Source: Escherichia coli
Lineage (GTDB): Bacteria > Pseudomonadota > Gammaproteobacteria > Enterobacterales > Enterobacteriaceae
Length of the DNA stretch: 64,000 bases
NCBI RefSeq assembly: GCF_024223415.1
Contig: NZ_CP100500.1
Strand: one strand, 5' to 3'
This document shows positions 10,010 through 59,994 of this stretch, piece by piece. Both the position numbers and the translations under genes were made by a program. Numbering within the stretch: the stretch's first letter is position 1; every line of letters begins with the position of its first letter. The notes under the pieces are model-generated. The model did no database searches. It saw nothing but the letters and a program-made list of their open reading frames with translations, and was not told the origin of the DNA.

Positions 10010-10020
10010 GCCATTTTCTT

Positions 10021-11373: not shown

Positions 11374-11506
11374 GAATTAATCCCCATGCCGGTGAAGAAG
11401 GGGCGTGACTTTAGCGAAATGTTGCCGTCGCGACAACCGGAATATGAAAGCAAAGCGTAGCGTCTGAATAACGTTTATGCTGAAAGCGGATGAATAAGGA
11501 GATGCG

Positions 11507-12355: not shown

Positions 12356-12363
12356 CGTTGGTC

Positions 12364-12452
12364 GCCGGATGCGGTGCGAGCGCCTTATCCGGCCTGGGGA
12401 ATGAGCGATTTGTAGGCATGATAAGACGCGTTAGCGTCGCATCAGGCGATGG
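12364..12452. repeat. REP/BIME palindromic repeats between convergent alkA and dgcE
   Basis: gccggatgcggtgcgagcgccttatccggcc and gtaggcatgataagacgcgttagcgtcgcatcaggcg match the REP consensus. Confidence 0.6.
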
Positions 12453-12463
12453 GGAAGCACGCC

Positions 12464-15400
12464 TCAGTTAATCGCGAAATAACTACTATTCACCAGCAAA
12501 TCCAGCGGTTGGGCATCGGCAATCACCTCACCATAAATCAGATCGACGCCGATGCCAGAAAGCGTATCCATCACTAAGGGTAAAACGACTGGCCCGGCGA
12601 TGGTTTTCATCCCGAGTCGCTGAGCGTGCCCCTGAATAATCGTAATCAGCATCTCATCCATCAAATTACCCTGCACGTTGGCGCATAACTCACCATCAAG
12701 TAGCAGGTAATCTGCCATATTCGCTTTCAGCGAGTTGAAGATTTGCAGATCGCGGCCCACCTGGCTGAGCACTATCCGACATCCCGCCAGCCGCAGTTTT
12801 TGCACGCTTTCTGCGTGATCTAAAATCGCTTCAGCCGGAATAATCAGATGTAATAACCGTGGTGGTAGAGGGCTATTTTCCAGCTGCTCAAGCAGATCAT
12901 TCACCAGCGTGGCGCTACTCAAACCGGCAACGGAAAGGGGGAGGGAGATGCTTATGCCTTTACTGGCAACCGCTTTTGCGGCCTGCTGGAAAAATTCGTG
13001 GAATACCCGGCGGTCAAGAGCATGGCTAAGCGCCGGATCGCTGAAGCTACGACGAAATGTTTGTTCATCAATAATCTCGCCTTCGCAACTCCAGAGCTTA
13101 AGTGAAATCAGCCACAAATTACGCGCTTCCGGGATCCGTGGCGAAGCGACACCGTGGGCGAGCATCATCAACTGATTCTCTTTAATCATCCGCCACTGTT
13201 CATCAAGCGACATCGCCGCCCGTTCGCTATGTGCGGCAGCTTGCTGCGGTTCGTAAACCGTCACCCGGCCCCGGCCACCATTTTTGGAGGCATAACAGGC
13301 GATATCAGCCTGCGACATCACTTCTGCCGCCTGATGATTGTTGTCATCAATCAAGGTAATCCCGGCACTGGCACCTACCCGATGCACACGGCCTTCCCAT
13401 ATAAAGTGATAGTCATTCACGGCACTGATAATGCGTGTAGCGATAAAACGCGCGCTTTCAACATTACAGTCTGGTAGCAGCAGACCAAATTCATCCCCAC
13501 CGAGTCGCGCCAGCACGTCGCTGGAACGCAGCATACTCAGCATTAACGACGCCAGTTCGCGCAGCAAAGCGTCACCCGCCGCATGCCCGGCGCTGTCATT
13601 CACCGCTTTAAAGCGATCAAGATCGATAAACACCAGGGCATGTCGCTGATGTGTACTGTTTACCGTTTGCAGCAGGATACGCAGTTGTTTCTCAAAACTG
13701 GCGCGGTTGGCGAGATGCGTCAGTGCATCATGGGAGGCGCTGTAGCTCAGCTGGCGCAGCATTTTGCGTGATTCGGTAACGTCCTGAATCACCAGAACCG
13801 AACCAATATTGCTGCCGTCCAGAGTACTTAACGGCGTAATACAGTAATGCACGTCGTAACTGCCGCCGCTCCGACAGTGCAACACCACATCTTGCTCGAT
13901 CGCGGAACGTGAGGTGTCGGCACTGTAAATGTTCTCCATTAATGGTCCGTTGTCGCCAAAAGTAATATGCAACACCGTCAGGAGCGGAACACCTAACGCT
14001 TCTTCCTGCGTCCAGCCGCTCATCTTCTCCGCCACTGGATTCATAAAGGTAATTTTCATCGCCATATCAATACAGACCACGGCTTCACCGATGGAATCAA
14101 GCGTAATGTGCAGGCGCTCTTTTTCCTGAAACAATGCCTCGTTAAGCTGTTTAACCTCAGTCATATCCATATTAATGCCGAGCAGGCGTTCGACTTCGCC
14201 TTCTTTATTCAGTACCCGGTTGGCGAGGGCGCGGATATGGCGGATGCCATCTTTCACGGCAATGCGAAATTCCAGCTTAAAGGGCGAGCGTGATTGCAAC
14301 GAATCACGAATCACTTTTTCGGCGTGTTGGCGATCTTCCGGCAATACACACTCGTACCACACCTGCCAGTTCGGTTTGATATGCGGAGGAATTTCATACA
14401 GCTCGAACATCCGCTTATCCCAGCTAAAAATATTCGGCTTCAACTCCCACTCCCAGATGCCAATCCCGCCCGCTTCGTTAGCCAGCGTGATGCGCTCCAT
14501 CAGTTGCTGATTGACCTGTTCGGTGCGTTTTAGCTCGTTAATGTCTTCAATCTGAGCGATAAAATAGAGCGGCGTGCCATCCGTGTGGCGCACCAGTGAG
14601 ACGGCAAGCAACGCCCAGACAACATCGCCATTGCGGTTGTAGTAGCGTTTTTCCATTGAATAGGTGTTTATTTCACCGCTTATCAGCTTTTCAACCTGTT
14701 GGAGATCTTTATTGAGATCCTCCGGCCAGGTCAGTTGCTGAAAGGTGAGTCCGCGCAGCTCTTCCTGACTGTACCCGAGAAACTGGCAGAGCGCTTTGTT
14801 GGTTTGCAGCCATTGTCCCTCGGTGCCCACTAACGCCATACCGATAGCGGAATATTCCATCGCGTTCCGAAAGTGGGTTTCGCTTTCGGAAATGTGTTTG
14901 CGTTCCGCACGAAAGGCATACATCACCATGGTCATGATGTTGGCGGGCAGCAGGATCAGCAAAAACGGTAGCCACGGCATATGGCTCATCAGGTACGTAC
15001 GCGGCGTAGCAAGCAGGGAGGGATCCGCGGCCATCATCAGCGACACCATCATCACCGTGGTAAGGAAGATCAAAAAGGCTTCCATTCGTGGCAGACGCAC
15101 GGCGCTCCACATCAACAGCACAATAATGAAAGTAAAAGGCCACGGCAGATACAGCATCGAAAGCCAGCTTAACGTCAGTGTGATGGCTAACGTGAGCAGC
15201 GACTCAAAAAGCAACCGTGGGTTGCGATGGCGCAGCAGATAGTGTGGTTTAAATAACAATCCCAGCGGCACCAGTGCCAGAGCGCCGATGGATTCTGACA
15301 GTACCCATATCAAAAATGCCCTGAGAGGATCGTCTCCGGGCGTCAGCAGGACAACCAGAACACCCCCCAACAGAGGCGGAACAATGGCGCTGCCGAGTGC

Positions 15401-45683: not shown

Positions 45684-45722
45684 CAGTGTTCTGGTAGCTG
45701 TAAAGCCAGGGGCGGTAGCGTA
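45684..45722 (+). promoter_or_regulatory. JUMPstart with ops element in the O-antigen cluster leader
   Basis: cagtgttctggtagctgtaaagccaggggcggtagcgta; ops core GGCGGTAGCGT. Confidence 0.8.
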
Positions 45723-46450: not shown

Positions 46451-47551
46451 ATGAGTTTTGAAAATTGGTATATAAAAGATATTGAACCATATAAACTGGC
46501 TAGTCATAAAGTATGGGACGATGTTTGCAACCGAGATATATTAAAATTAGATTGGAATGAAGCAACTATTCCTGCTAGTCCGTATGTAAAGAAAAGAATT
46601 TTAGAAACTATTGATAAAATAGAGTTTAGATATTACCCAAACGTAAACAACATGGAGTTGTTAACAGCTATCGCGGGATATACTCAACTCAACATAGAAA
46701 ATATTCAATATTTTCCAAGTTCTGATGCTGCACATGAATATATAGCATCAGTATTCTTAACATCAGAAGATAGAGTGTTAATATTGTCCCCGACATATGA
46801 TAATTTCAGGCTAACCTGTCAAAGTAGAGGGGCGGAAATATCGTATGTTAATTGTTTTGATGGGGCGTTTCAATTCCAGAGTGAATTATTTATAAATGTT
46901 TTGAAAGAAACAAAGCCTAAAATTGCATATATGTGTAACCCTAACAATCCGACGGGTTCAATAATAAGGCGGGAATATATAAAGAAAATATTAACTCTTT
47001 TTCCTGATATCTTGTTTGTTTTAGATGAGGCTTATATTGAATTTTCATCTGGTTCATGTGGTGATTTTGTTAAGGAATATGATAATTTGATAGTATCAAG
47101 AACCTTCTCGAAGGCATTTGCGCTGGCCAATTTTAGGATTGGTTATATATTGGCTTCACCTAAACTTATAGTTTCAATTAATAAAATAAGAAATTCTAAG
47201 AATGTAACGACATTATCACAAGAGGCTGCAGTTGCTGCATTGCATGATTCTCAATATATGCAAGCTTATGTTAATGAGGTGATTGTAGCGCGACAATACT
47301 TTATTGAAGAGATAAATAGAAGGTTTGGAGATAAGCTGATAGCATATGAAAGTCATGGTAATTTTGTTCTTGTAAAATGCTCCTCGGAAATACTAAAAAA
47401 AACATTAATAAAAGGCCTGGAGGAACAAGATATTTTCATAAGAGATTTGTCACACAAGGAGCTCAATGGTTTACATATAAGGATTACTATTGGAACACGG
47501 ACTCAAATGAGGCAGGTGCTTAATGTTATTGAAAATATTATTGGTCAATAA
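46451..47551 (+). CDS. PLP-dependent class I/II aminotransferase-fold enzyme, HisC/CobD-like
   Basis: 366 aa; motifs CNPNNPTG, DEAYIEF and SRTFSKAFALANFRIGY (candidate PLP-lysine); low-GC codon usage. Confidence 0.8.
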   Translation: MSFENWYIKDIEPYKLASHKVWDDVCNRDILKLDWNEATIPASPYVKKRILETIDKIEFRYYPNVNNMELLTAIAGYTQLNIENIQYFPSSDAAHEYIASVFLTSEDRVLILSPTYDNFRLTCQSRGAEISYVNCFDGAFQFQSELFINVLKETKPKIAYMCNPNNPTGSIIRREYIKKILTLFPDILFVLDEAYIEFSSGSCGDFVKEYDNLIVSRTFSKAFALANFRIGYILASPKLIVSINKIRNSKNVTTLSQEAAVAALHDSQYMQAYVNEVIVARQYFIEEINRRFGDKLIAYESHGNFVLVKCSSEILKKTLIKGLEEQDIFIRDLSHKELNGLHIRITIGTRTQMRQVLNVIENIIGQ

Positions 47552-47587
47552 TATGTTTGCAGGCGCTCTTTATTATGTTGGTCAGCG

Positions 47588-48277
47588 ATGAAATATAAAT
47601 ACGCTTTTTTTGATTTTTGTGAAACGTTGGTGGATTTACAAACTGCTGATGATTACATTTCTGATGTGATTATTAAGAAGGAAGGCCGATGGAGTTATAA
47701 GCTTGCGATTATTGGCTTCTTAAGGAATAGATGGGTTAATAAATTATTTAATAAATTGTTTAACAATTATGATAACCCTAAGTCTTTGATTTTGAAGCTG
47801 GTTAAAGGGTTTGACTATGGGGTCTTTTCTGTTGCTGCAGAAGAATATTGTAAAAAACTAATGGAGTATTACTTAATTGATGATGTTATTTCGGAGATGC
47901 TAGAATTAAAAAAAAAGAATTATCAAATAATCATTGTCTCTGGGGGATATGATATATATATAAAGCATTTTTTTTCCTCAGTTGTAGATAAGGTTATAGC
48001 TACCGAGATTGATTTTTCTGATTCTAAGTGTCTGGGGAAAATATCAGGTATTGATTGTTTAGGTGTGAACAAGTTAAACAAAATAAAGAAATATATTGAT
48101 GTCAACACAATAGATTATGAAAATTCCTACGTCTTTTCTGACAGTAAAACAGATTTGCCTCTTTTTTCGTTAGCAAAGAATAAAATTGTCATATCTAAGA
48201 AAAAAAACAAATCGTGGGTTAATGAGCAAAATGAAGAATTTATTGAAAAAGTATGGTGTCCTAAAAAAATATGCTAA
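47588..48277 (+). CDS. HAD-superfamily hydrolase, probable phosphatase
   Basis: 229 aa; HAD motif I-like AFFDFCETL (second Asp replaced by Cys), motif II IVSGG, motif IV-like FSDSKTDLPLF. Confidence 0.7.
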   Translation: MKYKYAFFDFCETLVDLQTADDYISDVIIKKEGRWSYKLAIIGFLRNRWVNKLFNKLFNNYDNPKSLILKLVKGFDYGVFSVAAEEYCKKLMEYYLIDDVISEMLELKKKNYQIIIVSGGYDIYIKHFFSSVVDKVIATEIDFSDSKCLGKISGIDCLGVNKLNKIKKYIDVNTIDYENSYVFSDSKTDLPLFSLAKNKIVISKKKNKSWVNEQNEEFIEKVWCPKKIC

Positions 48278-49145
48278 GAAGTATTATTACTATACTTCTT
48301 CTTTTTTAATGTCAGATGAATTATATATAAAAAGGAAGTTTAAGAAAATTTTCGGATATGCTTTGGATATCAATAATCCAAAAACAATGAATGAAAAGAT
48401 GCAATGGATGAAGTTACATATGCATCCTCAGGAATATAATATTTTTGCAGATAAACTTCTTGTTAGAAAATACGTGGAAGAAAAGATTGGTAAAAATATA
48501 CTAATACCTATTTTTGCAGTATACGAAAGTGAAGCCGAATTAAATATAGATTCTTTGCCTGACGAACCATTTATCATTAAGACGAATCATGATAGTTCTG
48601 GTGGAATAATCGTGAGAAACAAATCAGAACTCAATATAAAGGATGCAAAAAGTTTTTGTCGATTTAATTTGAATAACAATCATTATTATATATCAAGAGA
48701 GAAACATTATAAACATTTAGACAGAAAAATTATTATAGAGAAGCTCCTTCTTACAAAATCCGGAAAAATCCCAAATGATTATAAAATAAATTGTATAAAT
48801 GGGCGTGCTGAATTTATATATTGCTCTATTGATAGAGAGGGGAAAAATTACCGAAAGATTTATGACAGGTCTTGGTGTGAAATGGATTTTAAATGGGGAA
48901 ATAAAGATGAGTTTGAGCATAAATTTACTGGGCCCAATATTGAAAAGCCTGATAATTTAGATAAAATGATTGAGTATGCGGAGATATTATCAATGGGGTT
49001 TCCTTATCTAAGAATAGATTTATACAATGTTGATGGGGAAATATATTTAGGAGAAATAACTATTTATCATGGGGGAGGGTTTGATGTTATTGAGCCAAAA
49101 GAATATGACTTATTTTTTGGTAATAAGATTCATTTAGAAAAATGA
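48222..49145 (+). CDS. TupA-like ATP-grasp amidoligase (start uncertain; ORF track begins at TTG 48186)
   Basis: N-terminal NPKTMNEKMQWMKL matches the conserved P-x-TFNEKIQWLK region of TupA-like ATP-grasp proteins; overlaps the upstream HAD ORF by 56-92 nt in another frame. Confidence 0.7.
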   Translation: MSKMKNLLKKYGVLKKYAKKYYYYTSSFLMSDELYIKRKFKKIFGYALDINNPKTMNEKMQWMKLHMHPQEYNIFADKLLVRKYVEEKIGKNILIPIFAVYESEAELNIDSLPDEPFIIKTNHDSSGGIIVRNKSELNIKDAKSFCRFNLNNNHYYISREKHYKHLDRKIIIEKLLLTKSGKIPNDYKINCINGRAEFIYCSIDREGKNYRKIYDRSWCEMDFKWGNKDEFEHKFTGPNIEKPDNLDKMIEYAEILSMGFPYLRIDLYNVDGEIYLGEITIYHGGGFDVIEPKEYDLFFGNKIHLEK

Positions 49146-50362
49146 AAAATATTATAAAGAATGGGCTGTCTCTTTCTTTTATAAAGGCAGTGACTTTGCT
49201 ATTTCCTATCGCCATTGTACCTATCCTGATATCAAAGATAGGAATGGATAAATATGGGGAAGTTGTATTTATCACTGCAATATATTCATATTTTATTAAT
49301 GTGGTTAGCTTTGGATTTGAAGAATCAGCCACTCAAGTCTTGGCAAAGAATCACTTCTCAGGTTTGTCGAAAAATGAATATATTTTGTCTGTTATCGTGC
49401 TCAAGGGCATAATTGCTGTTTCTATAATTTTTGTCATTTGTGGTTTGTATTTTTTGGGGATGGGAGGAGATTTTTTCTCATTGCTATTTTGTATTACCAT
49501 CGTCGCTGAGGTTTTTAATCCCTTATGGTTTTATCAGGGGGTCGAAAGAATTCATATTATCTCAGTGAGCTCTATAGTATCAAAATCATTATATACAATA
49601 TTAATATGTCTGTTTGTGAGATGTAATAATGATTATTACCTTGTTCCTGTATTTTTAGGCGGTGCGAATATTCTTTCTTATGTCTATCCGTTTGTTGCTA
49701 TGTGTAATGAGTGTAAATTTCGGCGCAATGACTTGAACTATAATAATTTGAAAAAAGTATTATTAGACTCAGTTAGTATATTCCTTACTAATTTTATCCC
49801 AACATTGAAAGATAAGATAGGTGCTATATTGATAGGTTTATCTTTCTCCATGAATATCGTAGCGATTTATGATATAATTATAAAAATACTTAATTTATTG
49901 TTTATTCCAGTAAATGTAATAAATGCATCGTTCTATCCAACACTTTCCAGGAAGAGAGAAAAGAAAATATTAATGCAATTAATGTATATAAATTTGGGTT
50001 ATGCTATTTTTGCATTTGTTATCGTATGTAATTTTTTTGATTATTTTTCCAATATCTACTTCCAATCCTATTCAGCGTATTCCGATGCTGTAAAAATAAT
50101 ATCTGTGTCTGTTGTTTTTTACTCAGTGAGTTTAATGATTGGAAAAAATATCCTATTGGTCACTGGTTTTTATCATCATGTGCTGCTCAGTATTATATTA
50201 TCGACAGGATTTTATTTGATGTTTGTCTGCTTTATGTATTCTCTTAGTTCATTGAGTATATATTCATTATGCTTTTTAACAACAGCATCATTCTTATTTG
50301 AAATGCTGGTTAGGTTAATTATGTTAAAGAAGACTAAGGCCTTGTTTTTTTTTAAATATTAA
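49142..50362 (+). CDS. wzx: O-antigen flippase Wzx
   Basis: 406 aa polytopic membrane protein, MOP-family-like; ATGA overlap with the upstream gene. Confidence 0.8.
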   Translation: MKNIIKNGLSLSFIKAVTLLFPIAIVPILISKIGMDKYGEVVFITAIYSYFINVVSFGFEESATQVLAKNHFSGLSKNEYILSVIVLKGIIAVSIIFVICGLYFLGMGGDFFSLLFCITIVAEVFNPLWFYQGVERIHIISVSSIVSKSLYTILICLFVRCNNDYYLVPVFLGGANILSYVYPFVAMCNECKFRRNDLNYNNLKKVLLDSVSIFLTNFIPTLKDKIGAILIGLSFSMNIVAIYDIIIKILNLLFIPVNVINASFYPTLSRKREKKILMQLMYINLGYAIFAFVIVCNFFDYFSNIYFQSYSAYSDAVKIISVSVVFYSVSLMIGKNILLVTGFYHHVLLSIILSTGFYLMFVCFMYSLSSLSIYSLCFLTTASFLFEMLVRLIMLKKTKALFFFKY

Positions 50363-50376
50363 TTAGGTATGGAAGT

Positions 50377-51246
50377 ATGAAAACAGTGTCAGTAATCATT
50401 CCAACATATAGGGATTGGGAAAGATTATCTAAATGTTTAAATGCAATAAAAAAACAAAGATATCCCGCAGAGTTTATTCAGGTAATAGTCATTAATAATG
50501 ATCCATTTGATGATAATCCATTTATAAATAGTGATGAATATAAAAATGTAAAGTTTTTAGTAGAGGGAAAGGTGGGTTCTTATGCAGCAAGAAATAAAGG
50601 CCTAAATTATGCAAAAGGGGAGATTATAGCATTCACTGATTCAGATTGTGTCCCAGATGAGTTTTGGATTTCAAATGCTGTTCGACATTTTGAAGAAAAT
50701 AGTAAATGCACAAGAATTGGTGGGAAAATTGAATTATTTTTCAAAGGTAATGTAAGTAAAACCCTAGCTGAATTTTATGAACAAAGTTATGCTTTCCGGC
50801 AGAAAGAGTTTGTTCAACGACAGGGAATGGCTGCAACAGCTAATATGTTCTCATATAAGAAGGTTTTTGATGATATATCATATTTCAATGATTCATTGAT
50901 GTCGGGAGGAGATGCCGAATGGGGAGTTAGGGCAAATAATAAAGGATATAGAATAGACTATTGTGATTCTGTCACTGTTTATCATCCGGCAAGAGAATCG
51001 ATGAAACAAATTTTTATAAAAAATCGAAGGGAAGCCAGTGGTAAAATAAAAAATAAACGAAAAGTGTTAATCAATTTTGTAATGTCATTGCTCCCACCAT
51101 TAAAATCGTTGATGTATATTAGGTATCATGGGAATAGTATATATAAAGTATTAATTGCATTTTTTATTAGATATTTAATGAGGATTGATACGGCTATAGA
51201 ACAAATCCGGGTTGTGTTTTTTAATAAGAAAGCCGAGCGATTATGA
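50377..51246 (+). CDS. Glycosyltransferase family 2
   Basis: 289 aa; VSVIIPTYRDWERLSKCLNAI and FTDSDC motifs. Confidence 0.8.
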   Translation: MKTVSVIIPTYRDWERLSKCLNAIKKQRYPAEFIQVIVINNDPFDDNPFINSDEYKNVKFLVEGKVGSYAARNKGLNYAKGEIIAFTDSDCVPDEFWISNAVRHFEENSKCTRIGGKIELFFKGNVSKTLAEFYEQSYAFRQKEFVQRQGMAATANMFSYKKVFDDISYFNDSLMSGGDAEWGVRANNKGYRIDYCDSVTVYHPARESMKQIFIKNRREASGKIKNKRKVLINFVMSLLPPLKSLMYIRYHGNSIYKVLIAFFIRYLMRIDTAIEQIRVVFFNKKAERL

Positions 51247-52487
51247 AAATGTTTTTTTTTGTTCTTTGCGTGTTCTTTTTAATAAATGGCTTTTATATAT
51301 ATCCGCCATTTAATAGTGCAATTTTAGCACCGATGTTAGCTTTATTGGGAGCACTAACATTAAGGAAGAAAATAACGATAAAGCCCTTTTCTGACTTGTT
51401 AGATCCTTCATTTTTATTTTGGTTTCTTTTTGTAAGTTGTTATTGTCTATCAATTGCAGTTTTCTCAAAAACATATGACTTATCATATGTAAAGAACTTT
51501 ATATCACAACTTGTTCAATTTGCTATTATTTTATTTAGTTTTTTTATGTTATCATCAATAGATGGAGCATTTTCTCTTAAGATAGAAAAAATTATCGTAT
51601 ATAGCTTCGTTTTACAATCTGTTATTCAGATAGCAGCATTTCTATATCCTGGAATAGCCGATATTATTCATTTATTTTATGATAAAGATAAAGTAGAGCG
51701 ATTATACATCAATTACGCAGGAGTAAGAGGACTGGCGTTGACTGGTTCCCCAGGGTGGGGAATATCTGTTGGATATGCTATATCATTTTTACTTTTTGTT
51801 AAAGCATTTGTTATTAATCAGAAATTGAAGTTTTCTAGTATTATAGTTGCAATACTACTTTTAATCGGTGCAATGTTTACTGGTCGCAGTGCTTTTATTG
51901 GTGTTATTTTCGGTGGGGGGTATTATCTTGTATCAGGAGAGGATATTACAAAAAAAATCAAAACTATAATTCTATTTTTAATTCTTCCTGCATTAATATG
52001 CATGTTAACATATATAATGTTGCCATCCCTATCCTCACTATTCGGAGATAAGGTTTTCCCATTTGTCTTTGAGTTCTATTATAAATACAAAGACACAGGT
52101 GAGTTATCTACTAAATCTACAGATATTTTGTTGAATATGTGGGATCTTAACGTTGATGTTACTGACATTGTGTTCGGTACAGGTAATTTCACAAATGACA
52201 AAACTGGAGAGTATTATTTCGGTAGTGATGTGGGATATCTCCGGAATTTATTGTATGGTGGTTTTTTTTGGATGTTCACTCTTTTTATTTATCAGGTTTC
52301 ATTATTTGGACAACTGCGTTGGTGGAAAAAAAGAAAGGATATTAAATTATTTGTATTCATTTTTATAGCCATGTTAATGTTGCTTGAGATGAAAGCAATG
52401 GCCATAGGATATAATAAATATGTGTTTACAGTTTCTATTTTATTAGGATTGTCATTTAAAGAGAGATACAGAAATGCTTACCAATAA
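51243..52487 (+). CDS. wzy: O-antigen polymerase Wzy
   Basis: 414 aa, about 10-12 predicted TM segments with a large loop; no similarity to Wzx; position. Confidence 0.7.
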   Translation: MKMFFFVLCVFFLINGFYIYPPFNSAILAPMLALLGALTLRKKITIKPFSDLLDPSFLFWFLFVSCYCLSIAVFSKTYDLSYVKNFISQLVQFAIILFSFFMLSSIDGAFSLKIEKIIVYSFVLQSVIQIAAFLYPGIADIIHLFYDKDKVERLYINYAGVRGLALTGSPGWGISVGYAISFLLFVKAFVINQKLKFSSIIVAILLLIGAMFTGRSAFIGVIFGGGYYLVSGEDITKKIKTIILFLILPALICMLTYIMLPSLSSLFGDKVFPFVFEFYYKYKDTGELSTKSTDILLNMWDLNVDVTDIVFGTGNFTNDKTGEYYFGSDVGYLRNLLYGGFFWMFTLFIYQVSLFGQLRWWKKRKDIKLFVFIFIAMLMLLEMKAMAIGYNKYVFTVSILLGLSFKERYRNAYQ

Positions 52488-53385
52488 AGTCTCTGTTGTT
52501 ATTCCGACACATAGTCGGCCTAATCTTTTGCGAAAAGCTATAGAAAGTGTTTTGAATCAGACATATAAGCCATGTGAAATTATTGTTGTTGATGATACAG
52601 AATCTGAAGAAACCGCTCGATGTTTATCTGTCATAAATAGCGATATACCTATTAGGCTAAAGTATAACACTTCTTCTGGTGCCGGCTCGTCTAGGAATTT
52701 AGGTGCAAAGATTGCTAATGGTGATTTTGTGGCTTTCTTGGATGACGATGATCTCTGGCTTCCAACTAAATTAGAAACGCAGATGTATGAATTGCGGCAT
52801 ACACAATATGATGCAATTTTTTGTCAGATGATAATAAATTATGAAGGGGTAAACATACAATATTCTACTCGAGCCAAAAATGTAGCTGAACCATTAAAAG
52901 AAATATGTATTGAAAACTTTATTGGTGCCACAATATCCTGTGTTATACGCCGTTCAATTTTTATGAAATTAGGAGGGTTTGATGAAAGATTCAAGGCTAG
53001 AGAGGAATATGATTTATGGATTCGAGTTATTCAATCTAATGCTAAAATTAAAATAATAGAAAAACCATTAACTATTTCAAATCGTTCTTTTGTACGGAAT
53101 CGTATTTCTTCTAACATAAATAATTATGAGCACGGAATATCACTTATTAACGAAAAATATGCTCGATTGATTACTGAAATATTAACTCCCAATGAGAGAA
53201 GAATAAGATTATCGAAACAATATGAATTTCTAGCTGCTCAGGCAATATCTTTAGGCCTTAAAATGACAAGCTCAAAGTATTATTTTAAGTCTTTTTTAAC
53301 AATTCCTTCTCTTAAATCGTTATTTCTTTCATTGTTGAGTATTATTTCTCCGCTAATGATAATAAAAATTAGAAGCAAACTTTAA
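52474..53385 (+). CDS. Glycosyltransferase family 2
   Basis: 303 aa; VSVVIPTHSRPNLLRKAIESVLNQTY and FLDDDD motifs. Confidence 0.8.
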   Translation: MLTNKVSVVIPTHSRPNLLRKAIESVLNQTYKPCEIIVVDDTESEETARCLSVINSDIPIRLKYNTSSGAGSSRNLGAKIANGDFVAFLDDDDLWLPTKLETQMYELRHTQYDAIFCQMIINYEGVNIQYSTRAKNVAEPLKEICIENFIGATISCVIRRSIFMKLGGFDERFKAREEYDLWIRVIQSNAKIKIIEKPLTISNRSFVRNRISSNINNYEHGISLINEKYARLITEILTPNERRIRLSKQYEFLAAQAISLGLKMTSSKYYFKSFLTIPSLKSLFLSLLSIISPLMIIKIRSKL

Positions 53386-53427
53386 TTATATCATCATTAT
53401 TAGACAGTCAATAACTGTGGAGTTAAC

Positions 53428-54690
53428 ATGAGTTCTGGGTTTAATTCTATTGAAAAGAACTTTTCAAGATTTTTATCTTACTTTCCAGGGATAAAAAAAA
53501 TAATTAAAAAAGCTTACATAAGGATAAATTTTTATATCTACAAAAAAGAACATAAAGTAAAAAGTGATTACAGCATCCATACGATTGATATCGATAGTTG
53601 CGAAACTTTTTTTGGATACTATGATAAATGTCCCGATAATGGTAAAGGAGATGTTATCGTTTGTGCATCGACTATATCTACCCACAACATACCTGATCCA
53701 AACAATCCGATTAAATTATATGTGTACAATCTTTGTACTAAAGATAAGGTGTTCATTGCTAATATTTCTGCATATAATTGGCAACAAGGATGTCGTGCTC
53801 ATTGGCTAAACGATGATTTACTTATTTATAACTTTTACTCTCATGAAAAGCGTAATTATTCGTCGAAAATATACTCAATCATAGAGAAAAAACATATAGC
53901 AGAGTTCTCTTTTGCGGTACAAGACAGTTTTCTTGGTAATTATTTTTTATCTATAAACTATTCTCGCTTAATGGCGTTACGCCCAGATTATGGATATAGA
54001 AATAAAAGTTTTTCTTGGGAATTGTTTGATCTGGCTAATGATGGTATATGGAAAGTCGATATTAGCTCTCGTAAGGGAGAATTAATCGTTACATTTTGTG
54101 ATATTATTAATTTTGAGTTTGAAAATAATGATGAGTATAAACATAAAGTTAACCATGTAATGATTTCTCCCGATGGTGAAAAATTTATATTTATACATCG
54201 TTATTATTATAAAGGTAAACGGAATGATAGATTAATGTTGTCAACCAAAGACGGACATTTAATTTCAGTATTAGCTAATAATAAAATGGTTAGTCATTGT
54301 TGTTGGCTTTCCAATGATAAAATTATCGGTTATTTAAGATCTGATAGTGGTGATGATAGTTATTGGGTTATTGATATAAATAATCTGGAGTCATACCAAC
54401 TCTTAGATGGTGAATTACTAAAATATGGCGATGGTCATCCATCGAATTGTAAAAATCTATTAGTGACGGATACATATCCTAATAAGTCAAGATATCAGAA
54501 ATTATTATTAGTCGATATGGATAATGATAATTACCAGGAACTTGGTGAGTTTTTACATGATCTTAGTTTTTCTGATGAGACTAGATGTGACTTACATCCT
54601 CGCTTTTCTCATGATGGCAGCATGATTTTTTTTGATTCAGTTTTTTCTGGAAAACGCAAGTTATGCTATTTACAGTTAATTAATAAATAA
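53428..54690 (+). CDS. Hypothetical protein, possibly beta-propeller-like; function unknown
   Basis: 420 aa, no GT signature recognised; repeated SPDG/SHDG-type strands (MISPDGEKFIFIH, HPRFSHDGSMIFFDS). Confidence 0.55.
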   Translation: MSSGFNSIEKNFSRFLSYFPGIKKIIKKAYIRINFYIYKKEHKVKSDYSIHTIDIDSCETFFGYYDKCPDNGKGDVIVCASTISTHNIPDPNNPIKLYVYNLCTKDKVFIANISAYNWQQGCRAHWLNDDLLIYNFYSHEKRNYSSKIYSIIEKKHIAEFSFAVQDSFLGNYFLSINYSRLMALRPDYGYRNKSFSWELFDLANDGIWKVDISSRKGELIVTFCDIINFEFENNDEYKHKVNHVMISPDGEKFIFIHRYYYKGKRNDRLMLSTKDGHLISVLANNKMVSHCCWLSNDKIIGYLRSDSGDDSYWVIDINNLESYQLLDGELLKYGDGHPSNCKNLLVTDTYPNKSRYQKLLLVDMDNDNYQELGEFLHDLSFSDETRCDLHPRFSHDGSMIFFDSVFSGKRKLCYLQLINK

Positions 54691-54695
54691 AGTGA

Positions 54696-55511
54696 TTGTA
54701 TATGAAAGTCGCAGTCGCAATGTCTGTATATAAGAATGATAATCCTATATACTTAGAGAAAGCCATTAAAAGTATATTGAATCAAACATATAAAAATATC
54801 CATTTATATATAGAGGTCGATGGAGTCATATCTCCACAATTATATCAATGTTTATCCTCTTTTATCTCATGCTCAAATATTAGTATAAATTTTAATAGTG
54901 ATTGTAAAGGATTGGCATTTAGATTAAATAATATTATTGATAAGGTTATATTTGATGGAGGATATTCGTATATTGCAAGAATGGATGCTGATGATATATC
55001 TCGACTCGATAGGATTGAAAAACAAGTAATATTTATGCAGACCCATAAGGATATTTCTGTTGTTGGTTCTGATGTTCTAGAAATAGATGAGGATGATAAT
55101 TTTTTATTTTACAAAAAAATGCATTGTGATCATGAGATCATCGTTCGAGATATTATTAAGAAATGTCCAATAAATCATCCCTCAGCATTTTTTAAAATAT
55201 CTTCATTTTATATAGTTAGATATAATTCCACCTTGAAGAACACACAGGATTATTACTTGTGGATTGATTTTATTTATAATAATTTAAAGATCTCAAACAT
55301 CAATGAGCCTTTGTTAAAATTTAGAGTGAATAGAGATTTTTATTCACGGAGAGGGTTTGATAAAGCTATCAATGATGTAAAATCACGAATATATGCCTTG
55401 CGAAAGTTGAATTGCTATTCACTAAGGAATATATTTCATATATTAATGCTTTTTTTTCTTAGAGTATCTCCGACTGTAATAAAAAAAATTGCATACAATA
55501 GACTTAGATAA
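54696..55511 (+). CDS. Glycosyltransferase family 2-like
   Basis: 271 aa; VAMSVYKNDNPIYLEKAIKSILNQTY and ARMDADDIS motifs; start may be the ATG at 54702. Confidence 0.75.
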   Translation: MYMKVAVAMSVYKNDNPIYLEKAIKSILNQTYKNIHLYIEVDGVISPQLYQCLSSFISCSNISINFNSDCKGLAFRLNNIIDKVIFDGGYSYIARMDADDISRLDRIEKQVIFMQTHKDISVVGSDVLEIDEDDNFLFYKKMHCDHEIIVRDIIKKCPINHPSAFFKISSFYIVRYNSTLKNTQDYYLWIDFIYNNLKISNINEPLLKFRVNRDFYSRRGFDKAINDVKSRIYALRKLNCYSLRNIFHILMLFFLRVSPTVIKKIAYNRLR

Positions 55512-57160: not shown

Positions 57161-57349
57161 ATTATACAAAGTGGCAGGTTATGGCTTTTTTATAATTTAT
57201 GGTTAAAAAGCGATATAATACATAGACGCACAGCAGGATTACTGCCTTGACAGTTCATCCGCATCAGCGTTAAAAATCCCGCAGTAGATGAAGATGTGTT
57301 GGTAGATTAATGACCACTCTAAATGTTTAACCGGAAGAAGTCAGAGCTA

Positions 57350-58516
57350 ATGAAAATAACAATTTCAGGAACAGGTTATGTTGGTCTTTCAAATGGTATT
57401 CTGATTGCGCAAAACCACGAAGTGGTTGCACTGGATATCGTTCAGGCCAAAGTGGACATGCTTAACAAGAAGCAGTCACCGATTGTTGATAAGGAGATTG
57501 AAGAGTATCTGGCGACTAAAGATCTCAATTTCCGCGCTACGACAGATAAGTATGACGCGTATAAAAATGCCGATTACGTTATTATTGCCACGCCTACCGA
57601 TTATGATCCGAAAACGAATTATTTTAATACCTCAAGCGTGGAAACGGTCATTCGCGATGTGACAGAAATTAATCCCAGCGCGGTAATGATTATAAAATCA
57701 ACTATCCCTGTTGGTTTTACAGAGTCTATTAAAGAACGGTTTGGTATTGAAAATGTGATTTTTTCGCCGGAGTTTTTACGCGAAGGGAAAGCACTTTATG
57801 ATAACTTGCATCCATCACGCATAGTGATTGGCGAGCAATCTGACCGCGCAGAACGTTTTGCAGCGTTATTACAGGAAGGCGCTATTAAGCAAGACATACC
57901 AATATTGTTTACTGACTCAACCGAGGCTGAGGCGATTAAACTTTTTGCCAATACTTATCTGGCGATGCGTGTGGCTTATTTTAATGAACTAGATACTTAC
58001 GCTGAAAGTCTGGGTCTTAACTCCCGCCAAATTATTGAGGGAGTTTGCCTTGATCCGCGTATCGGTAATCACTACAATAATCCGTCATTTGGTTATGGTG
58101 GTTATTGTCTGCCGAAAGATACTAAGCAGTTACTGGCAAACTATCAGTCAGTACCGAATAACTTGATCTCAGCAATTGTCGATGCCAATCGCACGCGAAA
58201 AGATTTTATTGCCGATTCTATCCTTGCACGTAAACCGAAAGTTGTTGGCGTCTATCGTCTGATTATGAAGAGTGGTTCGGACAATTTCCGTGCTTCCTCA
58301 ATTCAGGGTATTATGAAGCGAATCAAGGCGAAAGGCGTGCCTGTAATCGTTTATGAGCCAGCTATGAAAGAGGACAATTTTTTCAGGTCGCGCGTGGTAC
58401 GTGATCTGGATGCGTTCAAGCAAGAAGCTGATGTTATTATTTCTAACCGTATGTCTGCCGATCTGGCTGATGTAGCAGATAAGGTTTATACGCGCGACTT
58501 GTTTGGCAATGATTAA
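57350..58516 (+). CDS. ugd: UDP-glucose 6-dehydrogenase
   Basis: ORF track 57323..58516; trimmed to [16 protein letters not shown] (388 aa). Confidence 0.95.
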
Positions 58517-58581: not shown

Positions 58582-59586
58582 TCAAACTTTATAGAAGTTA
58601 CGATACCATTCTACAAAGTTCTTTACCCCCTCTTTAACTGACGTTTCAGGTTTGAATCCTATTACGTCATACAGTGCTTTGGTATCAGCACTGGTTTCCA
58701 GTACATCACCGGGTTGGAGAGGCATCATATTTTTGTTGGCTTCAATACCCAGAGCCTCTTCTAACGCATTGATATAGTCCATCAACTCTACAGGCGAACT
58801 ATTACCAATGTTATAGACACGATATGGTGCTGAACTTGTTGCAGGCGAGCCTGTTTCTACAGCCCACTGTGGATCTTTTTCTGGAATAACATCCTGTAAG
58901 CGAATAATAGCTTCGGCAATATCATCAATATAAGTAAAGTCACGCTTCATTTTGCCGAAGTTGTAAACATCAATGCTTTTACCTTCCAACATGGCTTTAG
59001 TAAATTTAAATAATGCCATATCCGGACGTCCCCATGGACCATAAACCGTAAAGAAACGCAGTCCTGTGGTCGGTAAGCCATACAAATGAGAATATGTATG
59101 GGCCATGAGTTCATTCGCTTTTTTAGTTGCTGCATAAAGTGAAACAGGATGATCTACAGAGTCATCTGTAGAGAAAGGCATCATGCGGTTCATACCATAA
59201 ACAGAACTGGAGGAAGCGTAAAGTAGATGCTGAACATTATTATGGCGGCATCCTTCCAGTATGTTCAGGAATCCAATCAGGTTTGCATCTGCATATGCAT
59301 TGGGATTTTCAAGGGAGTAACGTACACCGGCTTGCGCAGCGAGGTTTATTACGCGATCGAACCGCTCCTCTGCAAACAGTGCTGCCATTTTCTCACGATC
59401 GGCCAGGTCAATTTTATAAAAACTGAAATTGTCGTGCTTGAGTAAATCAAGTCGTGCTTGTTTGAGGTTGACATCGTAATAATCATTTAAGTTGTCAATG
59501 CCTACAACCTGATGACCAGCTGCAAGAAGCCGTTTACTTACATAGAAACCGATAAAGCCAGCAGCTCCCGTAACCAGAAATTTCAT
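58582..59586 (-). CDS. gla: UDP-glucuronate 4-epimerase (NAD-dependent SDR epimerase, Gla/CapI-like)
   Basis: 334 aa; [21 protein letters not shown] Rossmann motif and YxxxK (YAATKKANE); position between ugd and wzz. Confidence 0.8.
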
Positions 59587-59752
59587 TTATTATCCTCTCT
59601 CAGGCTTGATTATAGCCAATCTTCATCTGGCATAACTGAAAGTTAAATCATACCGTTAGACAAGAAAAAAAGATAATCGGTATCAGTTCTAAACATGGCT
59701 GTTTTTTCTGGTAACGTGCTCATTTTACAATCAAAGATGTTCTAAACTGACT

Positions 59753-59848
59753 ATACAAGCCGACGTCATTATTTCCAACCGTATGACAGAAGAGCTTAAG
59801 GATGTGGCAGATAAGGTCTACACCCGCGATCTCTTTGGCAGTGACTAA
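59753..59848 (+). pseudogene. ugd: Remnant of a second ugd 3' end (last ~30 codons) downstream of gla
   Basis: Translates to [31 protein letters not shown], near-identical to the C-terminus of the intact ugd ([29 protein letters not shown]). Confidence 0.75.
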
Positions 59849-59994
59849 CATCTTGTTATCAGGGCGATTTTCGCCCTGATTGTCTTATGTTTCCTTTGTA
59901 ATAATTCATTGTTTTTATCATTTATCCTATAGCATTCATGGCGATTATTGCTAAACTATGGCGACTTAAAATTATTTCGTCCGTTAGGGTAATG

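What the first reader, a model, noticed from the sequence alone, without database searches (positions are those of the whole stretch)
53428..54690. 420-aa ORF of unknown function inside the O-antigen cluster
It sits between two GT2 genes with the same low-GC composition, but has no GT-A/GT-B, acyltransferase or Wzx/Wzy signature that I can recognise. It has repeated strand-like motifs reminiscent of PD40/TolB-type beta-propeller blades (ISPDGEKFIF, FSHDGSMIFFDS) and no obvious signal peptide or TM segment. It could be a novel glycosyltransferase fold, a glycan-modifying enzyme (lyase or epimerase), or an accessory protein.
Basis: partly seen in the sequence, partly recalled or inferred. Interest (0 to 1): 0.55.

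Follow-up and report, generated by a model that had tools for sequence, protein, structure and literature searches.

The report
WbgV-like uronic acid C5-epimerase gene
The unannotated 420-aa gene in this rare E. coli O-antigen cluster is not a glycosyltransferase but a seven-bladed propeller enzyme related to pectin-degrading lyases and to Shigella sonnei WbgV, and most likely flips a D-uronic acid sugar into its rare L-form just before the next gene's product adds it to the O-antigen.

Summary
Window 53428-54690 (+) is an intact 420-aa ORF at about 29-30% GC between two GT2 genes, with no Pfam, NCBIfam or PDB sequence match. It has no signal peptide or TM segment.

The protein belongs to a large family (at least 2,400 clusters at 50% identity) in bacterial and some archaeal polysaccharide loci. 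Databases mislabel it 'glycosyl transferase', 'TolB' or hypothetical. In 39 of 47 close orthologues a specific ~270-aa GT2 follows immediately, and propeller-GT fusions exist.

Shigella sonnei WbgV is 35.5% identical, keeps all 28 invariant or near-invariant residues and has the same gene order. RefSeq names it 'UDP-GalNAcA C5 epimerase'.

With ugd and gla next to the cluster, the best reading is UDP-GalA to UDP-L-altruronic acid, passed to the downstream GT2. It is a new member of a known kind. The activity is untested.

The parts
53428..54690 (+). Target gene: WbgV-family, PL22-like seven-bladed beta-propeller protein, putative UDP-uronic acid C5-epimerase (420 aa)
53446..53541 (+). Codons 7-38: two N-terminal basic amphipathic helices (helix, Pro20 break, helix); inferred peripheral membrane anchor
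   Evidence: DSSP on the model gives H7-16 and H20-38. Hydrophobic moment is 0.74 and 0.36, with net charge +1 and +5. L16, P20, K23 and K27 are conserved. There is no TM-grade hydrophobicity. The membrane role is inferred.
54142..54201 (+). Codons 239-258, HKVNHVMISPDGEKFIFIHR: invariant N242, H243 and R258 on the innermost strand of one blade
   Evidence: Conservation over 280 sequences. H243 aligns to PL22 H192 and H257 to H207.
54286..54306 (+). Codons 287-293, MVSHCCW: invariant S289 and H290, aligned to the PL22 putative Bronsted base His242
   Evidence: The role of His242 in PL22 is from my memory of Abbott et al. 2010, a paper I could not read here.
54427..54480 (+). Codons 334-351, GDGHP...TDTYP: invariant D335, G336, H337, D348 and Y350
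   Evidence: D335-G336 align to PL22 D300-G301.
54577..54603 (+). Codons 384-392, ETRCDLHPR: invariant R386, C387, D388 and H390. This is the remodelled counterpart of the PL22 Mn-site motif RQVTHPH.
   Evidence: R386=R349, C387=Q350, H390=H355 (or H353 by eye).
54696..55511 (+). Partner glycosyltransferase 'GT2c' (271 aa from TTG 54696; RefSeq start is the ATG at 54702). Inferred transferase for the epimerised L-uronic acid.
   Evidence: GT2, EpsE/TuaG-like. A homologue lies immediately downstream of the propeller gene in 39 of 47 close orthologous loci, with gaps mostly -3 to +4 nt. It is fused to a phosphoglycosyltransferase in Alcaligenaceae.
57323..58516 (+). ugd, UDP-glucose 6-dehydrogenase: supplies UDP-GlcA
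   Evidence: RefSeq annotation of the identical locus. Ugd-type dehydrogenases co-occur with family members.
58582..59586 (-). gla-type NAD-dependent epimerase: inferred UDP-GlcA 4-epimerase giving UDP-GalA, the proposed substrate
   Evidence: Strongly Gla-like SDR genes lie next to the propeller gene in 14 of the fetched loci.

Best explanation
The gene encodes a cytoplasmic, membrane-peripheral UDP-uronic acid C5-epimerase of the WbgV family. It has a seven-bladed beta-propeller that shares ancestry with PL22 oligogalacturonate lyases.

Proposed mechanism (inferred):
1. The carboxylate of a galacto-configured UDP-uronic acid is bound and neutralised in the central channel. Here the substrate is most likely UDP-GalA, made by Ugd and Gla.
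2. An invariant histidine (H290, the counterpart of the lyase's base) removes the C5 proton, as in a lyase.
3. O4 carries no glycosidic leaving group, so the enolate is reprotonated from the opposite face by a second invariant residue instead of eliminating. The product is the L-altro sugar, UDP-L-AltA.
4. The product passes directly to the translationally coupled downstream GT2 (54696-55511). That enzyme adds it early in assembly of the Und-PP-linked repeat unit.

What is shown: the fold, the homology to PL22 and to WbgV, the residue conservation, and the gene coupling and fusions. What is inferred: the reaction, the substrate, the membrane anchoring and the channelling.
For: Fold and homology to PL22:
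- hhalign of 280 family sequences against 121 PL22 sequences gives 91.2% probability, E 9.9e-7, 340 columns.
- R268=R217, H290=H242 and D335-G336=D300-G301 are retained, as is one Mn-ligand His.

Active-site signature:
- Across 280 sequences there is an invariant polar and aromatic core: H243, H290, H337, H390, D335, D348, D388, R386, C387, Q119, Q120, Y64, W126, Y188, Y190 and Y350.

Link to WbgV:
- S. sonnei WbgV matches at E 2e-58, 35.6% identity over 97% of the length, and RefSeq names it 'UDP-GalNAcA C5 epimerase WbgV'.
- WbgV keeps all 28 invariant or near-invariant residues.
- The gene order is the same: the propeller gene is overlapped by a GT2 gene.

Argument by elimination in S. sonnei:
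- The O-unit is the disaccharide FucNAc4N plus L-AltNAcA, and the wzz-wbgZ region alone makes it in E. coli (PMC8048667 abstract).
- Dehydrogenase, 4-epimerase, aminotransferase, dehydratase, phosphoglycosyltransferase, GT2, Wzx, Wzy and Wzz account for every step except C5 epimerisation. WbgV is the only protein left (my inference).

Coupling to glycosyltransferases:
- A GT2c homologue is immediately downstream in 39 of 47 close orthologues, and it is the top co-occurring family in unbiased clustering.
- Fusions exist to GT2 in both orders and to a WaaS/CpsH-family GT, and to GT1-type proteins.

Precursors:
- ugd and gla flank the window cluster.
- Where precursor genes are visible they are galacto-type: 14 loci have strongly Gla-like and 4 strongly WbgU-like 4-epimerases.
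- L-uronic acids are known in genera rich in this family (PMC3210612).
Against: - No enzymatic or structural-chemistry data exist for this protein. I could not find or read the primary paper behind RefSeq's WbgV name. GenBank copies of the same gene still say 'glycosyl transferase'.
- Identity to WbgV is only 35.5%, and WbgV's partner GT2 (WbgW) is a different subfamily from GT2c. Substrate specificity may therefore differ.
- A UDP-sugar 6-dehydrogenase lies within about 9 kb in only 12 of 39 fully flanked loci, so the uronic acid link is not visible everywhere.
- The PL22 Mn site is not conserved. Q350 becomes Cys, H287 has no conserved counterpart, and one His of the HxH motif is lost. R268 is only 87% conserved. 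The lyase analogy is therefore partial.
- No O-antigen structure is available for this cluster, so the predicted L-AltA residue is unverified.
- The N-terminal amphipathic helices and the GT fusions would also fit action on a lipid-linked sugar rather than on a UDP-sugar.
Confidence: 0.72

Rival explanations
1. It is a C5-epimerase or lyase-like enzyme that acts on the Und-PP-linked sugar or oligosaccharide at the membrane, after the partner GT2 has transferred a D-uronic acid, and not on the UDP-sugar.
For: - N-terminal basic amphipathic helices suggest membrane association.
- The protein is tightly coupled to GTs and fused to them.
- The partner GT2c is fused to the initiating phosphoglycosyltransferase in Alcaligenaceae, which places the module at the first lipid-linked steps.
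- The fold's ancestor, PL22, acts on glycosides and not on nucleotide sugars.
Against: - RefSeq's name for WbgV specifies UDP-GalNAcA as the substrate.
- Product channelling to a dedicated GT explains the coupling equally well.
- No direct data exist either way.
Confidence: 0.13
2. It is a glycosyltransferase with a new fold, or a non-catalytic subunit that scaffolds, anchors or presents the acceptor for the adjacent GT2, as many database names ('glycosyl transferase') imply.
For: - Widely annotated as glycosyl transferase.
- Obligate-looking pairing with a small GT2 that lacks a clear TM anchor.
- Fusions to GT domains.
- Liu et al. note E. coli clusters with 'one extra glycosyltransferase' (PMC7685785).
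Against: - There is no GT-A, GT-B or GT-C fold, and the closest fold is a lyase.
- About 20 invariant His, Asp, Arg, Cys, Gln and Tyr residues lining the propeller point to catalysis, not scaffolding.
- In S. sonnei a disaccharide unit with a phosphoglycosyltransferase plus one GT2 leaves no glycosidic bond for WbgV to make, while the C5 epimerisation step has no other candidate.
Confidence: 0.07
3. It is an active uronate lyase or hydrolase that trims or recycles cytoplasmic intermediates, or a C5-epimerase with a different substrate (for example UDP-GlcA to UDP-L-IdoA).
For: - PL22-like fold with the base His retained.
- UDP-GlcA is also available from ugd.
- L-IdoA occurs in E. coli O112ab and in Pseudoalteromonas.
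Against: - A degradative lyase has no obvious role inside Wzx/Wzy repeat-unit clusters, nor as a fusion to GTs.
- The precursor genes seen beside family members are galacto-type: Gla-like or WbgU-like 4-epimerases in 18 loci.
- The PL22 Mn site is remodelled.
Confidence: 0.08

Closest known systems
WbgV of Shigella sonnei form I / Plesiomonas shigelloides O17 O-antigen cluster (RefSeq WP_000923778.1, 'UDP-GalNAcA C5 epimerase WbgV')
   Same: Full-length homologue: 35.5% identity, tblastn E 2e-58. All 28 family-invariant or near-invariant residues are kept. The length is about the same (414 vs 420 aa), as are the N-terminal helices and the gene order, with a GT2 gene immediately downstream and overlapping or abutting. 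Both sit in a Wzx/Wzy cluster supplied with a galacto-configured UDP-uronic acid.
   Different: WbgV's precursor pathway is Gne/Gna-type (WbgU, WbgT), giving UDP-GalNAcA. The window has Ugd and Gla, giving UDP-GalA and no acetamido group. The partner GT2 belongs to a different subfamily: WbgW is 328 aa and shows no significant similarity to GT2c. The initiating enzyme is WecA here, not a small phosphoglycosyltransferase. The expected product is therefore L-AltA, not L-AltNAcA.
PL22 oligogalacturonate lyases (YeOGL 3PE7, VPA0088 3C5M; Pfam PF14583)
   Different: There is no significant Pfam PF14583 match and identity is about 13-19%. The Mn site of three His plus Gln is remodelled: Q350 becomes an invariant Cys, H287 is lost and one His of HxH is lost. 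The family has extra invariant residues of its own (H243, H337, D348, D388, Y350) and an extra N-terminal helical pair. The context is biosynthetic (O-antigen and capsule loci, coupled to a GT), not pectin catabolism. The expected outcome is epimerisation, not beta-elimination.
Lyase-related uronate C5-epimerases in general (alginate AlgG/AlgE, heparosan/heparan sulfate C5-epimerase)
   Same: The chemical logic is the same, from established knowledge: abstraction of the C5 proton next to a neutralised carboxylate, then reprotonation from the other face. These enzymes are evolutionarily and structurally related to the lyases that act on the same sugars.
   Different: Those enzymes are beta-helix or (alpha/alpha)-barrel proteins that act on polymers, mostly outside the cytoplasm. 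This one is a beta-propeller, cytoplasmic, and (by the WbgV name) acts on a nucleotide sugar.
TolB / PD40 propeller proteins and S9 peptidase propeller domains
   Different: TolB is periplasmic, has a signal peptide, an N-terminal alpha/beta domain and a six-bladed propeller, and has no catalytic His/Asp core. This protein has none of those features. 'TolB family protein' is a misnomer for it.

Membership tests
WbgV-type uronic acid C5-epimerase family | Full-length sequence homology to WbgV | tested here: met
   tblastn gives 35.6% identity over residues 8-416, E 2e-58. Pairwise MAFFT gives 35.5% identity end to end. The AFDB model of Q7BIM2 (S. sonnei) has TM 0.88-0.90 to the model.
WbgV-type uronic acid C5-epimerase family | Conservation of the family's invariant residues (four blade histidines, D335, D348, D388, R386, C387, Q119, Q120 and the aromatic residues) | tested here: met
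   All 28 checked positions are identical between the window protein and WbgV. They are 98-100% conserved over 280 sequences.
WbgV-type uronic acid C5-epimerase family | Gene immediately followed by, and translationally coupled to, a glycosyltransferase gene in a polysaccharide cluster | tested here: met
   In the window the stop codon ends at 54690 and the GT2 gene starts at 54696 or 54702. In S. sonnei there is an 8-nt overlap with wbgW. 39 of 47 close orthologues show the same arrangement.
WbgV-type uronic acid C5-epimerase family | Local supply of a galacto-configured UDP-uronic acid | tested here: met
   ugd (57323-58516) and a gla-type epimerase (58582-59586) adjoin the cluster. This is an inference from annotation and homology. 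The Gla activity itself was not tested.
WbgV-type uronic acid C5-epimerase family | C5-epimerase activity, and an L-altro (or other L-) uronic acid in the polysaccharide | not testable with these tools
The basis of RefSeq's WbgV name could not be read.
PL22 oligogalacturonate lyase (CAZy PL22 / Pfam PF14583) | Seven-bladed beta-propeller fold | tested here: met
PL22 oligogalacturonate lyase (CAZy PL22 / Pfam PF14583) | Significant match to the family's sequence profile | tested here: not met
   There is no PF14583 hit for the protein. Only 1 of 40 members reaches i-E 0.054. Homology is detectable only by profile-profile comparison (91%, E 1e-6).
PL22 oligogalacturonate lyase (CAZy PL22 / Pfam PF14583) | Mn2+ site of three His plus one Gln (H287, H353, H355, Q350 in YeOGL; residue roles from my memory of Abbott et al. 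2010, positions verified on the true sequence) | tested here: not met
   Q350 aligns to invariant C387. H287 aligns to non-conserved E329. Only one of H353/H355 is retained, as H390.
PL22 oligogalacturonate lyase (CAZy PL22 / Pfam PF14583) | Catalytic base His242 and Arg217 | tested here: met
   H290 (100% conserved) aligns to H242. R268 (87% conserved) aligns to R217. The alignment is sequence-based. No coordinates were available for a superposition.
PL22 oligogalacturonate lyase (CAZy PL22 / Pfam PF14583) | Pectin or oligogalacturonide catabolic gene context | tested here: not met
   All 83 loci examined are polysaccharide-biosynthesis neighbourhoods with GTs, Wzx, Wzy, phosphoglycosyltransferases and sugar-nucleotide enzymes.
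Glycosyltransferase (GT-A / GT-B / GT-C folds; the name many databases give this family) | A recognised GT fold or GT family profile | tested here: not met
   There are no GT Pfam or NCBIfam hits. The model is an all-beta propeller, and no GT appears among the structural matches.
Glycosyltransferase (GT-A / GT-B / GT-C folds; the name many databases give this family) | A glycosidic linkage in the product that lacks another candidate transferase | tested here: not met
   The S. sonnei disaccharide repeat has the phosphoglycosyltransferase WbgY, the GT2 WbgW and Wzy, which cover all linkages. For the window cluster this could not be tested because no structure is known.
TolB / Tol-Pal system propeller | Periplasmic export signal, N-terminal alpha/beta domain, tol-pal operon context | tested here: not met
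   There is no signal peptide, the N-terminus is helical and basic, and the gene is in an O-antigen cluster. TIGR02800 scores 19.7 bits against a cut-off of 343.

The most novel reading that the evidence does not exclude
The close-orthologue clade to which this gene belongs, always paired with the GT2c-type transferase, would be a distinct enzyme-transferase machine. It would make non-acetamido L-uronic acids (L-AltA from UDP-GalA, or L-IdoA from UDP-GlcA), possibly at the membrane on the lipid-linked intermediate. This rare E. coli / Edwardsiella O-antigen would then contain an L-altruronic acid, perhaps as its serinol amide, a residue not recorded among the 185 E. coli serogroups reviewed. 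More broadly, thousands of 'glycosyl transferase', 'TolB' and 'hypothetical' genes across bacteria and some archaea would mark polysaccharides that contain L-uronic acids. That would also supply the long-missing bacterial route to L-IdoA and L-AltA.
Probability: 0.3. Interest if true: 0.6.

Novelty: new member of a known kind. Interest (0 to 1): 0.42.

Why it matters
- It turns a 'hypothetical protein' in an E. coli O-antigen cluster into a specific, testable prediction: this serogroup's O-antigen contains a C5-epimerised (L-altro or L-ido) uronic acid, added by the downstream GT2.
- It shows that a very large family is systematically unannotated or misannotated. There are at least 2,400 clusters at 50% identity, spanning Proteobacteria, Bacteroidota, Firmicutes, Spirochaetes, Planctomycetes, Patescibacteria and some archaea. 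No Pfam or NCBIfam model covers it, and it is named 'glycosyl transferase' or 'TolB'. This inflates GT counts when gene clusters are matched to glycan structures.
- The remote but full-length homology to PL22 lyases gives a mechanistic frame (lyase-to-epimerase conversion on a propeller scaffold) and a short list of residues to mutate.
- The propeller-plus-GT2 pair could serve as a genomic marker for L-uronic acids in surface glycans, which matter for serotyping and glycoconjugate vaccine design (S. sonnei being the precedent).

Tried and rejected
1. **Link to the uronamide (serinol) pathway.** My first idea was that the propeller belongs with the aminotransferase, HAD and ATP-grasp genes upstream. 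I rejected it because those genes co-occur with close orthologues in only 1-4 of 49 loci.
2. **TolB or Dpp5 propeller membership.** Only sub-threshold hits were found, and the compartment and architecture are wrong.
3. **Thin-profile hhalign** (40 family sequences against 2 PL22 sequences). It gave only 16% probability and a partial, blade-ambiguous alignment. It was superseded by the 280 vs 121 profile comparison.
4. **PDB sequence searches** with the protein and with the family profile found nothing useful.
5. **Diverged copies in other E. coli serogroups.** I was looking at O143 and O167, which Liu et al. report as having 'one extra GT', and at O112ab, which has L-IdoA. blastn in 'distant' mode with the gene, with the amide-pathway genes and with wbgV found only the same two genomes or nothing. 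AFDB does list a second E. coli homologue, A0A0B4N3E3 'TolB', but I could not identify its serogroup.
6. **Primary literature.** I could not obtain the papers on the PL22 active site, on WbgV biochemistry or on the E. tarda PCM 1153 structure. The PL22 residue roles are therefore from memory. I checked only that those positions carry the stated residues.
7. **UDP-sugar dehydrogenase enrichment** as a test of uronic acid dependence was inconclusive: 12 of 39 fully flanked loci, with no control set.
8. **Pseudogene in strain 181.1.** Rejected as assembly error.
9. **Residue distances in the model.** Predicted-structure coordinates are not exposed, so I could not measure whether the four histidines, Cys387 and the aspartates form one metal site.
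Full report
**1. The observation**

Window 53428-54690 (+) is a 420-codon ATG-initiated ORF. The window is an E. coli chromosome segment that runs wcaM, galF, O-antigen cluster, gnd, ugd, an NAD-dependent epimerase (gla type), wzzB, then the his operon. This was shown by near-identity to NZ_CP021726 (strain Combat11I9) and its RefSeq annotation.

The O-antigen block is 0.28-0.34 GC against 0.53-0.56 in the flanking chromosome. Its genes are:

| Coordinates | Gene |
|---|---|
| 46451-47551 | HisC/CobD-like aminotransferase |
| 47588-48277 | HAD-IB phosphatase |
| 48186-49145 | ATP-grasp (TupA-type) amidoligase |
| 49142-50362 | wzx |
| 50377-51246 | GT2 |
| 51243-52487 | wzy |
| 52474-53385 | GT2 |
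| 53428-54690 | the target |
| 54696-55511 | GT2 |

Pfam-A, NCBIfam and PDB sequence searches give nothing significant. There is no hydrophobic segment of TM grade.

Only 2 of 5,426 complete E. coli genomes carry the gene. In one of them, strain 181.1, the gene and most of the cluster look frameshifted. Of the 23 indel columns, 22 are single-base deletions in homopolymer runs and one is a single-base insertion, and the substitutions sit at CCAGG sites. This is the pattern of long-read assembly error, not decay.

**2. A large, conserved, unannotated family**

- A word-indexed search found 2,994 homologues.
- An exhaustive HMMER search of 1.84 billion representatives found 2,433 clusters, 725 below 1e-30.
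- Almost all are about 420 aa and align end to end.
- Source names are inconsistent: 'glycosyl transferase', 'TolB family protein', 'hypothetical protein', and for distant members 'oligogalacturonate lyase domain-containing protein'.
- None of 40 members reaches significance against any Pfam family.
- A scan of one genome per species found 235 confirmed loci. The 80 fetched span Proteobacteria, Bacteroidota, Firmicutes, Spirochaetes, Planctomycetes, Cloacimonadota, Patescibacteria, and Lokiarchaeota and ANME-1 contigs.
- Over 280 aligned sequences a strictly invariant set remains: Y64, Q119, Q120, W126, N135, Y188, Y190, H243, S289, H290, D335, G336, H337, D348, Y350, R386, D388 and H390. C387, N242, R258, D403 and R410 are 98-99% conserved.
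- One histidine sits on or next to the innermost strand of each of four successive blades (secondary structure). This pattern is typical of a catalytic or metal-binding centre in the propeller channel, and not of a scaffold.

**3. Fold**

AlphaFold2 on a 40-sequence alignment gives pLDDT 90.4 and pTM 0.89. The model has two N-terminal helices (7-16 and 20-38) followed by a seven-bladed propeller. The helices are basic and amphipathic, with conserved L16, P20, K23 and K27. I infer a peripheral membrane anchor.

- Foldseek against the PDB gives its best TM-scores for the PL22 oligogalacturonate lyase VPA0088, 3c5m (0.62/0.68).

**4. Homology to PL22 and the active site**

I obtained the true sequences of 3PE7 and 3C5M from the PDB sequence search.

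- A thin profile comparison was weak.
- With 280 family sequences against 121 PL22 sequences, hhalign gives 91.2% probability, E 9.9e-7, and 340 aligned columns covering residues 31-420 against 7-385.

Residue mapping:

| This family | PL22 (YeOGL) | Comment |
|---|---|---|
| R268 | R217 | kept (87% conserved in the family) |
| H290 | H242 | kept |
| H243 | H192 | kept |
| H257 | H207 | kept |
| D335-G336 | D300-G301 | kept |
| R386 | R349 | kept |
| C387 | Q350 | changed to an invariant Cys |
| H390 | H355 (or H353 by eye) | one His of the HxH motif kept |
| E329 (not conserved) | H287 | lost |

From my memory of Abbott et al. (J Biol Chem 2010), which I could not read here, H242 is the proposed Bronsted base of YeOGL, and H287, H353, H355 and Q350 bind Mn2+. 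I verified only that these positions carry those residues.

So the base His and the Arg are kept, while the Mn site is largely remodelled. The family is a distant relative of PL22 and not a member of it.

**5. Genomic coupling**

- In Edwardsiella tarda the whole cluster is syntenic with the window.
- In Vibrio and Thiothrix the cluster is otherwise different, but the propeller gene is again followed by a GT2 gene of about 270 aa with overlapping stop and start codons.
- Across 83 loci, 39 of 47 close orthologues with enough downstream DNA have a homologue of the window's 271-aa GT2 ('GT2c') immediately downstream, with gaps mostly -3 to +4 nt.
- In an unbiased clustering of all neighbouring ORFs, this GT2 family is by far the most frequent partner: 43 of 48 close loci, median distance +3 nt.
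- The aminotransferase, HAD and ATP-grasp genes are not conserved partners (1-4 of 49 loci).
- Fusion proteins exist: GT2-propeller (P0236), propeller-GT2 (P0268), propeller-WaaS/CpsH-family GT (P0269, E 5e-51), and GT1-type fusions in AFDB.
- In Alcaligenaceae, GT2c itself is fused to a polyprenyl glycosylphosphotransferase domain (TIGR03025, 4.6e-56). This places the module at the first steps on the lipid carrier.

**6. Identification**

The AFDB search returned Q7BIM2, 'Glycosyl transferase [Shigella sonnei]' (TM 0.88-0.90).

- A tblastn search of plasmids shows this is wbgV of the S. sonnei invasion-plasmid O-antigen cluster: 35.6% identity over 97% of the query, E 2e-58.
- RefSeq names it 'UDP-GalNAcA C5 epimerase WbgV', while GenBank copies still say 'glycosyl transferase'.
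- On pSS_046 the order is wzz, TviB-like dehydrogenase (WbgT), SDR epimerase (WbgU), wzx, wzy, IS630, wbgV, a GT2 (wbgW, overlapping wbgV by 8 nt), DegT aminotransferase (wbgX), small sugar transferase (wbgY), and PglF-like dehydratase (wbgZ).
- WbgV keeps all 28 invariant or near-invariant residues.
- No NCBIfam HMM matches WbgV. The name must therefore be applied by a protein-specific rule, which explains why the E. coli protein is still 'hypothetical'.

An independent argument reaches the same function.

- The S. sonnei O-unit is the disaccharide D-FucNAc4N plus L-AltNAcA, and the 12.2-kb wzz-wbgZ region suffices to make it in E. coli (bioRxiv 10.64898/2026.03.26.714513; PMC8048667 abstract).
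- L-AltNAcA is the C5 epimer of D-GalNAcA.
- Every other gene has an obvious role. WbgV is the only protein left, and C5 epimerisation is the only reaction left (my inference).
- Published assignments are inconsistent. PMC9723277 calls WbgZ the C-5 epimerase and groups WbgV with sugar synthesis.
- I could not find the primary biochemical paper.

**7. Mechanism and substrate in this cluster (inferred)**

Lyases and C5-epimerases of uronates share their first step: abstraction of the C5 proton next to a neutralised carboxylate. This is established knowledge for the alginate and heparan systems. A nucleotide sugar has no glycosidic leaving group at O4, so reprotonation from the opposite face gives the C5 epimer.

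The window supplies UDP-GlcA (ugd) and, via the gla-type SDR, UDP-GalA. Where precursor genes are visible beside family members, they are galacto-type:
- 14 loci have a strongly Gla-like 4-epimerase, usually with a Ugd-type dehydrogenase;
- 4 loci have a strongly WbgU-like 4-epimerase, mostly alongside a WbgT-type dehydrogenase.

This matches the galacturonate specificity of the PL22 relatives. I therefore predict UDP-GalA to UDP-L-AltA, transferred by GT2c. UDP-GlcA to UDP-L-IdoA is the main alternative.

The tight coupling and the fusions are most simply explained by channelling of an epimer that is present at equilibrium to its dedicated transferase at the membrane. Action on the lipid-linked sugar is not excluded.

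Genus-level support: L-IdoA, L-GulNAcA/L-GulNA, L-GalNAcA and L-AltNAcA occur in Pseudoalteromonas, Idiomarina and Vibrio glycans. In Idiomarina zobellii the L-GulNA is attached to the reducing-end FucNAc (PMC3210612). This parallels S. sonnei and the GT2c-phosphoglycosyltransferase fusion.

Weaknesses:
- A UDP-sugar dehydrogenase is visible within about 9 kb in only 12 of 39 fully flanked loci.
- No structure is known for this O-antigen.
- There is no assay for this protein.

**8. Verdict**

The gene is a new member of a known kind, a WbgV-type uronic acid C5-epimerase, probably with a different substrate (no acetamido group) and a different partner GT. Confidence in the epimerase assignment is about 0.7.

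Interest is moderate. The function of the archetype is already recorded in RefSeq. The size of the family, its systematic misannotation, its lyase ancestry and the prediction of an L-altruronic acid in an E. coli O-antigen are still useful.

Noticed in passing
window 46451-49145 (+): A HisC/CobD-like PLP aminotransferase, a HAD-IB phosphatase and an ATP-grasp TupA-type amidoligase open the cluster. With ugd and gla this looks like a pathway that amidates a uronic acid with 2-amino-1,3-propanediol (serinol), as I recall for Campylobacter jejuni Cj1435-Cj1438. An Edwardsiella tarda O-polysaccharide (PCM 1153) with a GalA amide of 2-aminopropane-1,3-diol is cited in PMC5485987.
   Followed up: partly
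L003 (Edwardsiella tarda GCA_048082445.1) 2992-12090 vs window 46451-55511: The entire low-GC gene set, from the aminotransferase to the last GT2, is syntenic between this E. coli and an Edwardsiella tarda genome. The propeller proteins are 67% identical. This points to an inter-genus shared or transferred O-antigen cluster that is very rare in E. coli (2 of 5,426 complete genomes).
   Followed up: partly
L001 (E. coli 181.1, NZ_CP059907) 5040-14079: Relative to the window this assembly has 22 single-base deletions in A/T/G homopolymer runs, one single-base insertion, and substitutions at CCAGG (Dcm) sites. These split the HAD, wzx, wzy, GT2 and propeller genes in the RefSeq annotation. They are almost certainly uncorrected long-read errors, so the annotated fragments ('glycosyl transferase' of 239 aa and others) are artefacts.
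   Followed up: yes
window 45711-45718 (+); also 21046, 21633, 34307 (+) and 2248, 2758, 10148 (-): The ops-like octamer GGCGGTAG occurs 7 times against 1.3 expected. One copy lies in the roughly 1-kb non-coding gap between galF and the first O-antigen gene, where a JUMPStart/RfaH element is expected. Two copies lie near 21 kb, possibly upstream of the colanic acid operon.
   Followed up: no
L011 11450-12862 (Candidimonas); similar 465-501-aa ORFs in L012, L019, L020, L021, L024, L028: In Alcaligenaceae and some other proteobacterial MAGs the partner GT2 is fused to a C-terminal polyprenyl glycosylphosphotransferase (Bac_transf) domain. A Wzy-like multi-TM protein overlaps the start of the propeller gene. 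Together they form a compact three-gene initiation, epimerase and polymerase unit.
   Followed up: partly
P0236, P0268, P0269; AFDB R6K196, A0A7C6YEU7, A0A1K1LWC6: Natural fusions join the propeller to glycosyltransferases of different families: GT2 at the N- or C-terminus, WaaS/CpsH family, and GT1/GT4-type. The propeller domain therefore partners with different transferase folds.
   Followed up: partly
L058 (Lokiarchaeota MAG) 9829-11115; L070 (ANME-1) 1602-2891: Full-length family members at 31-33% identity occur on archaeal metagenome-assembled contigs. I did not check whether these are genuine archaeal genes or binning contaminants.
   Followed up: no
window about 59750-59850, between the gla-type gene and wzzB: RefSeq annotates a 96-nt remnant of a hypothetical protein ('incomplete; missing N-terminus') at the corresponding place in both related genomes.
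   Followed up: no
AFDB A0A0B4N3E3 'TolB [Escherichia coli]'; Liu et al. 2020 PMC7685785: A second, diverged E. coli family member (32% identity, 420 aa) exists in UniProt. The E. coli O-antigen review lists an uncharacterised 'Gae, C5-epimerase' for L-IdoA in O112ab, and notes 'one extra glycosyltransferase' in O52, O143 and O167. Any of these could be members of this family. I could not test this.
   Followed up: partly
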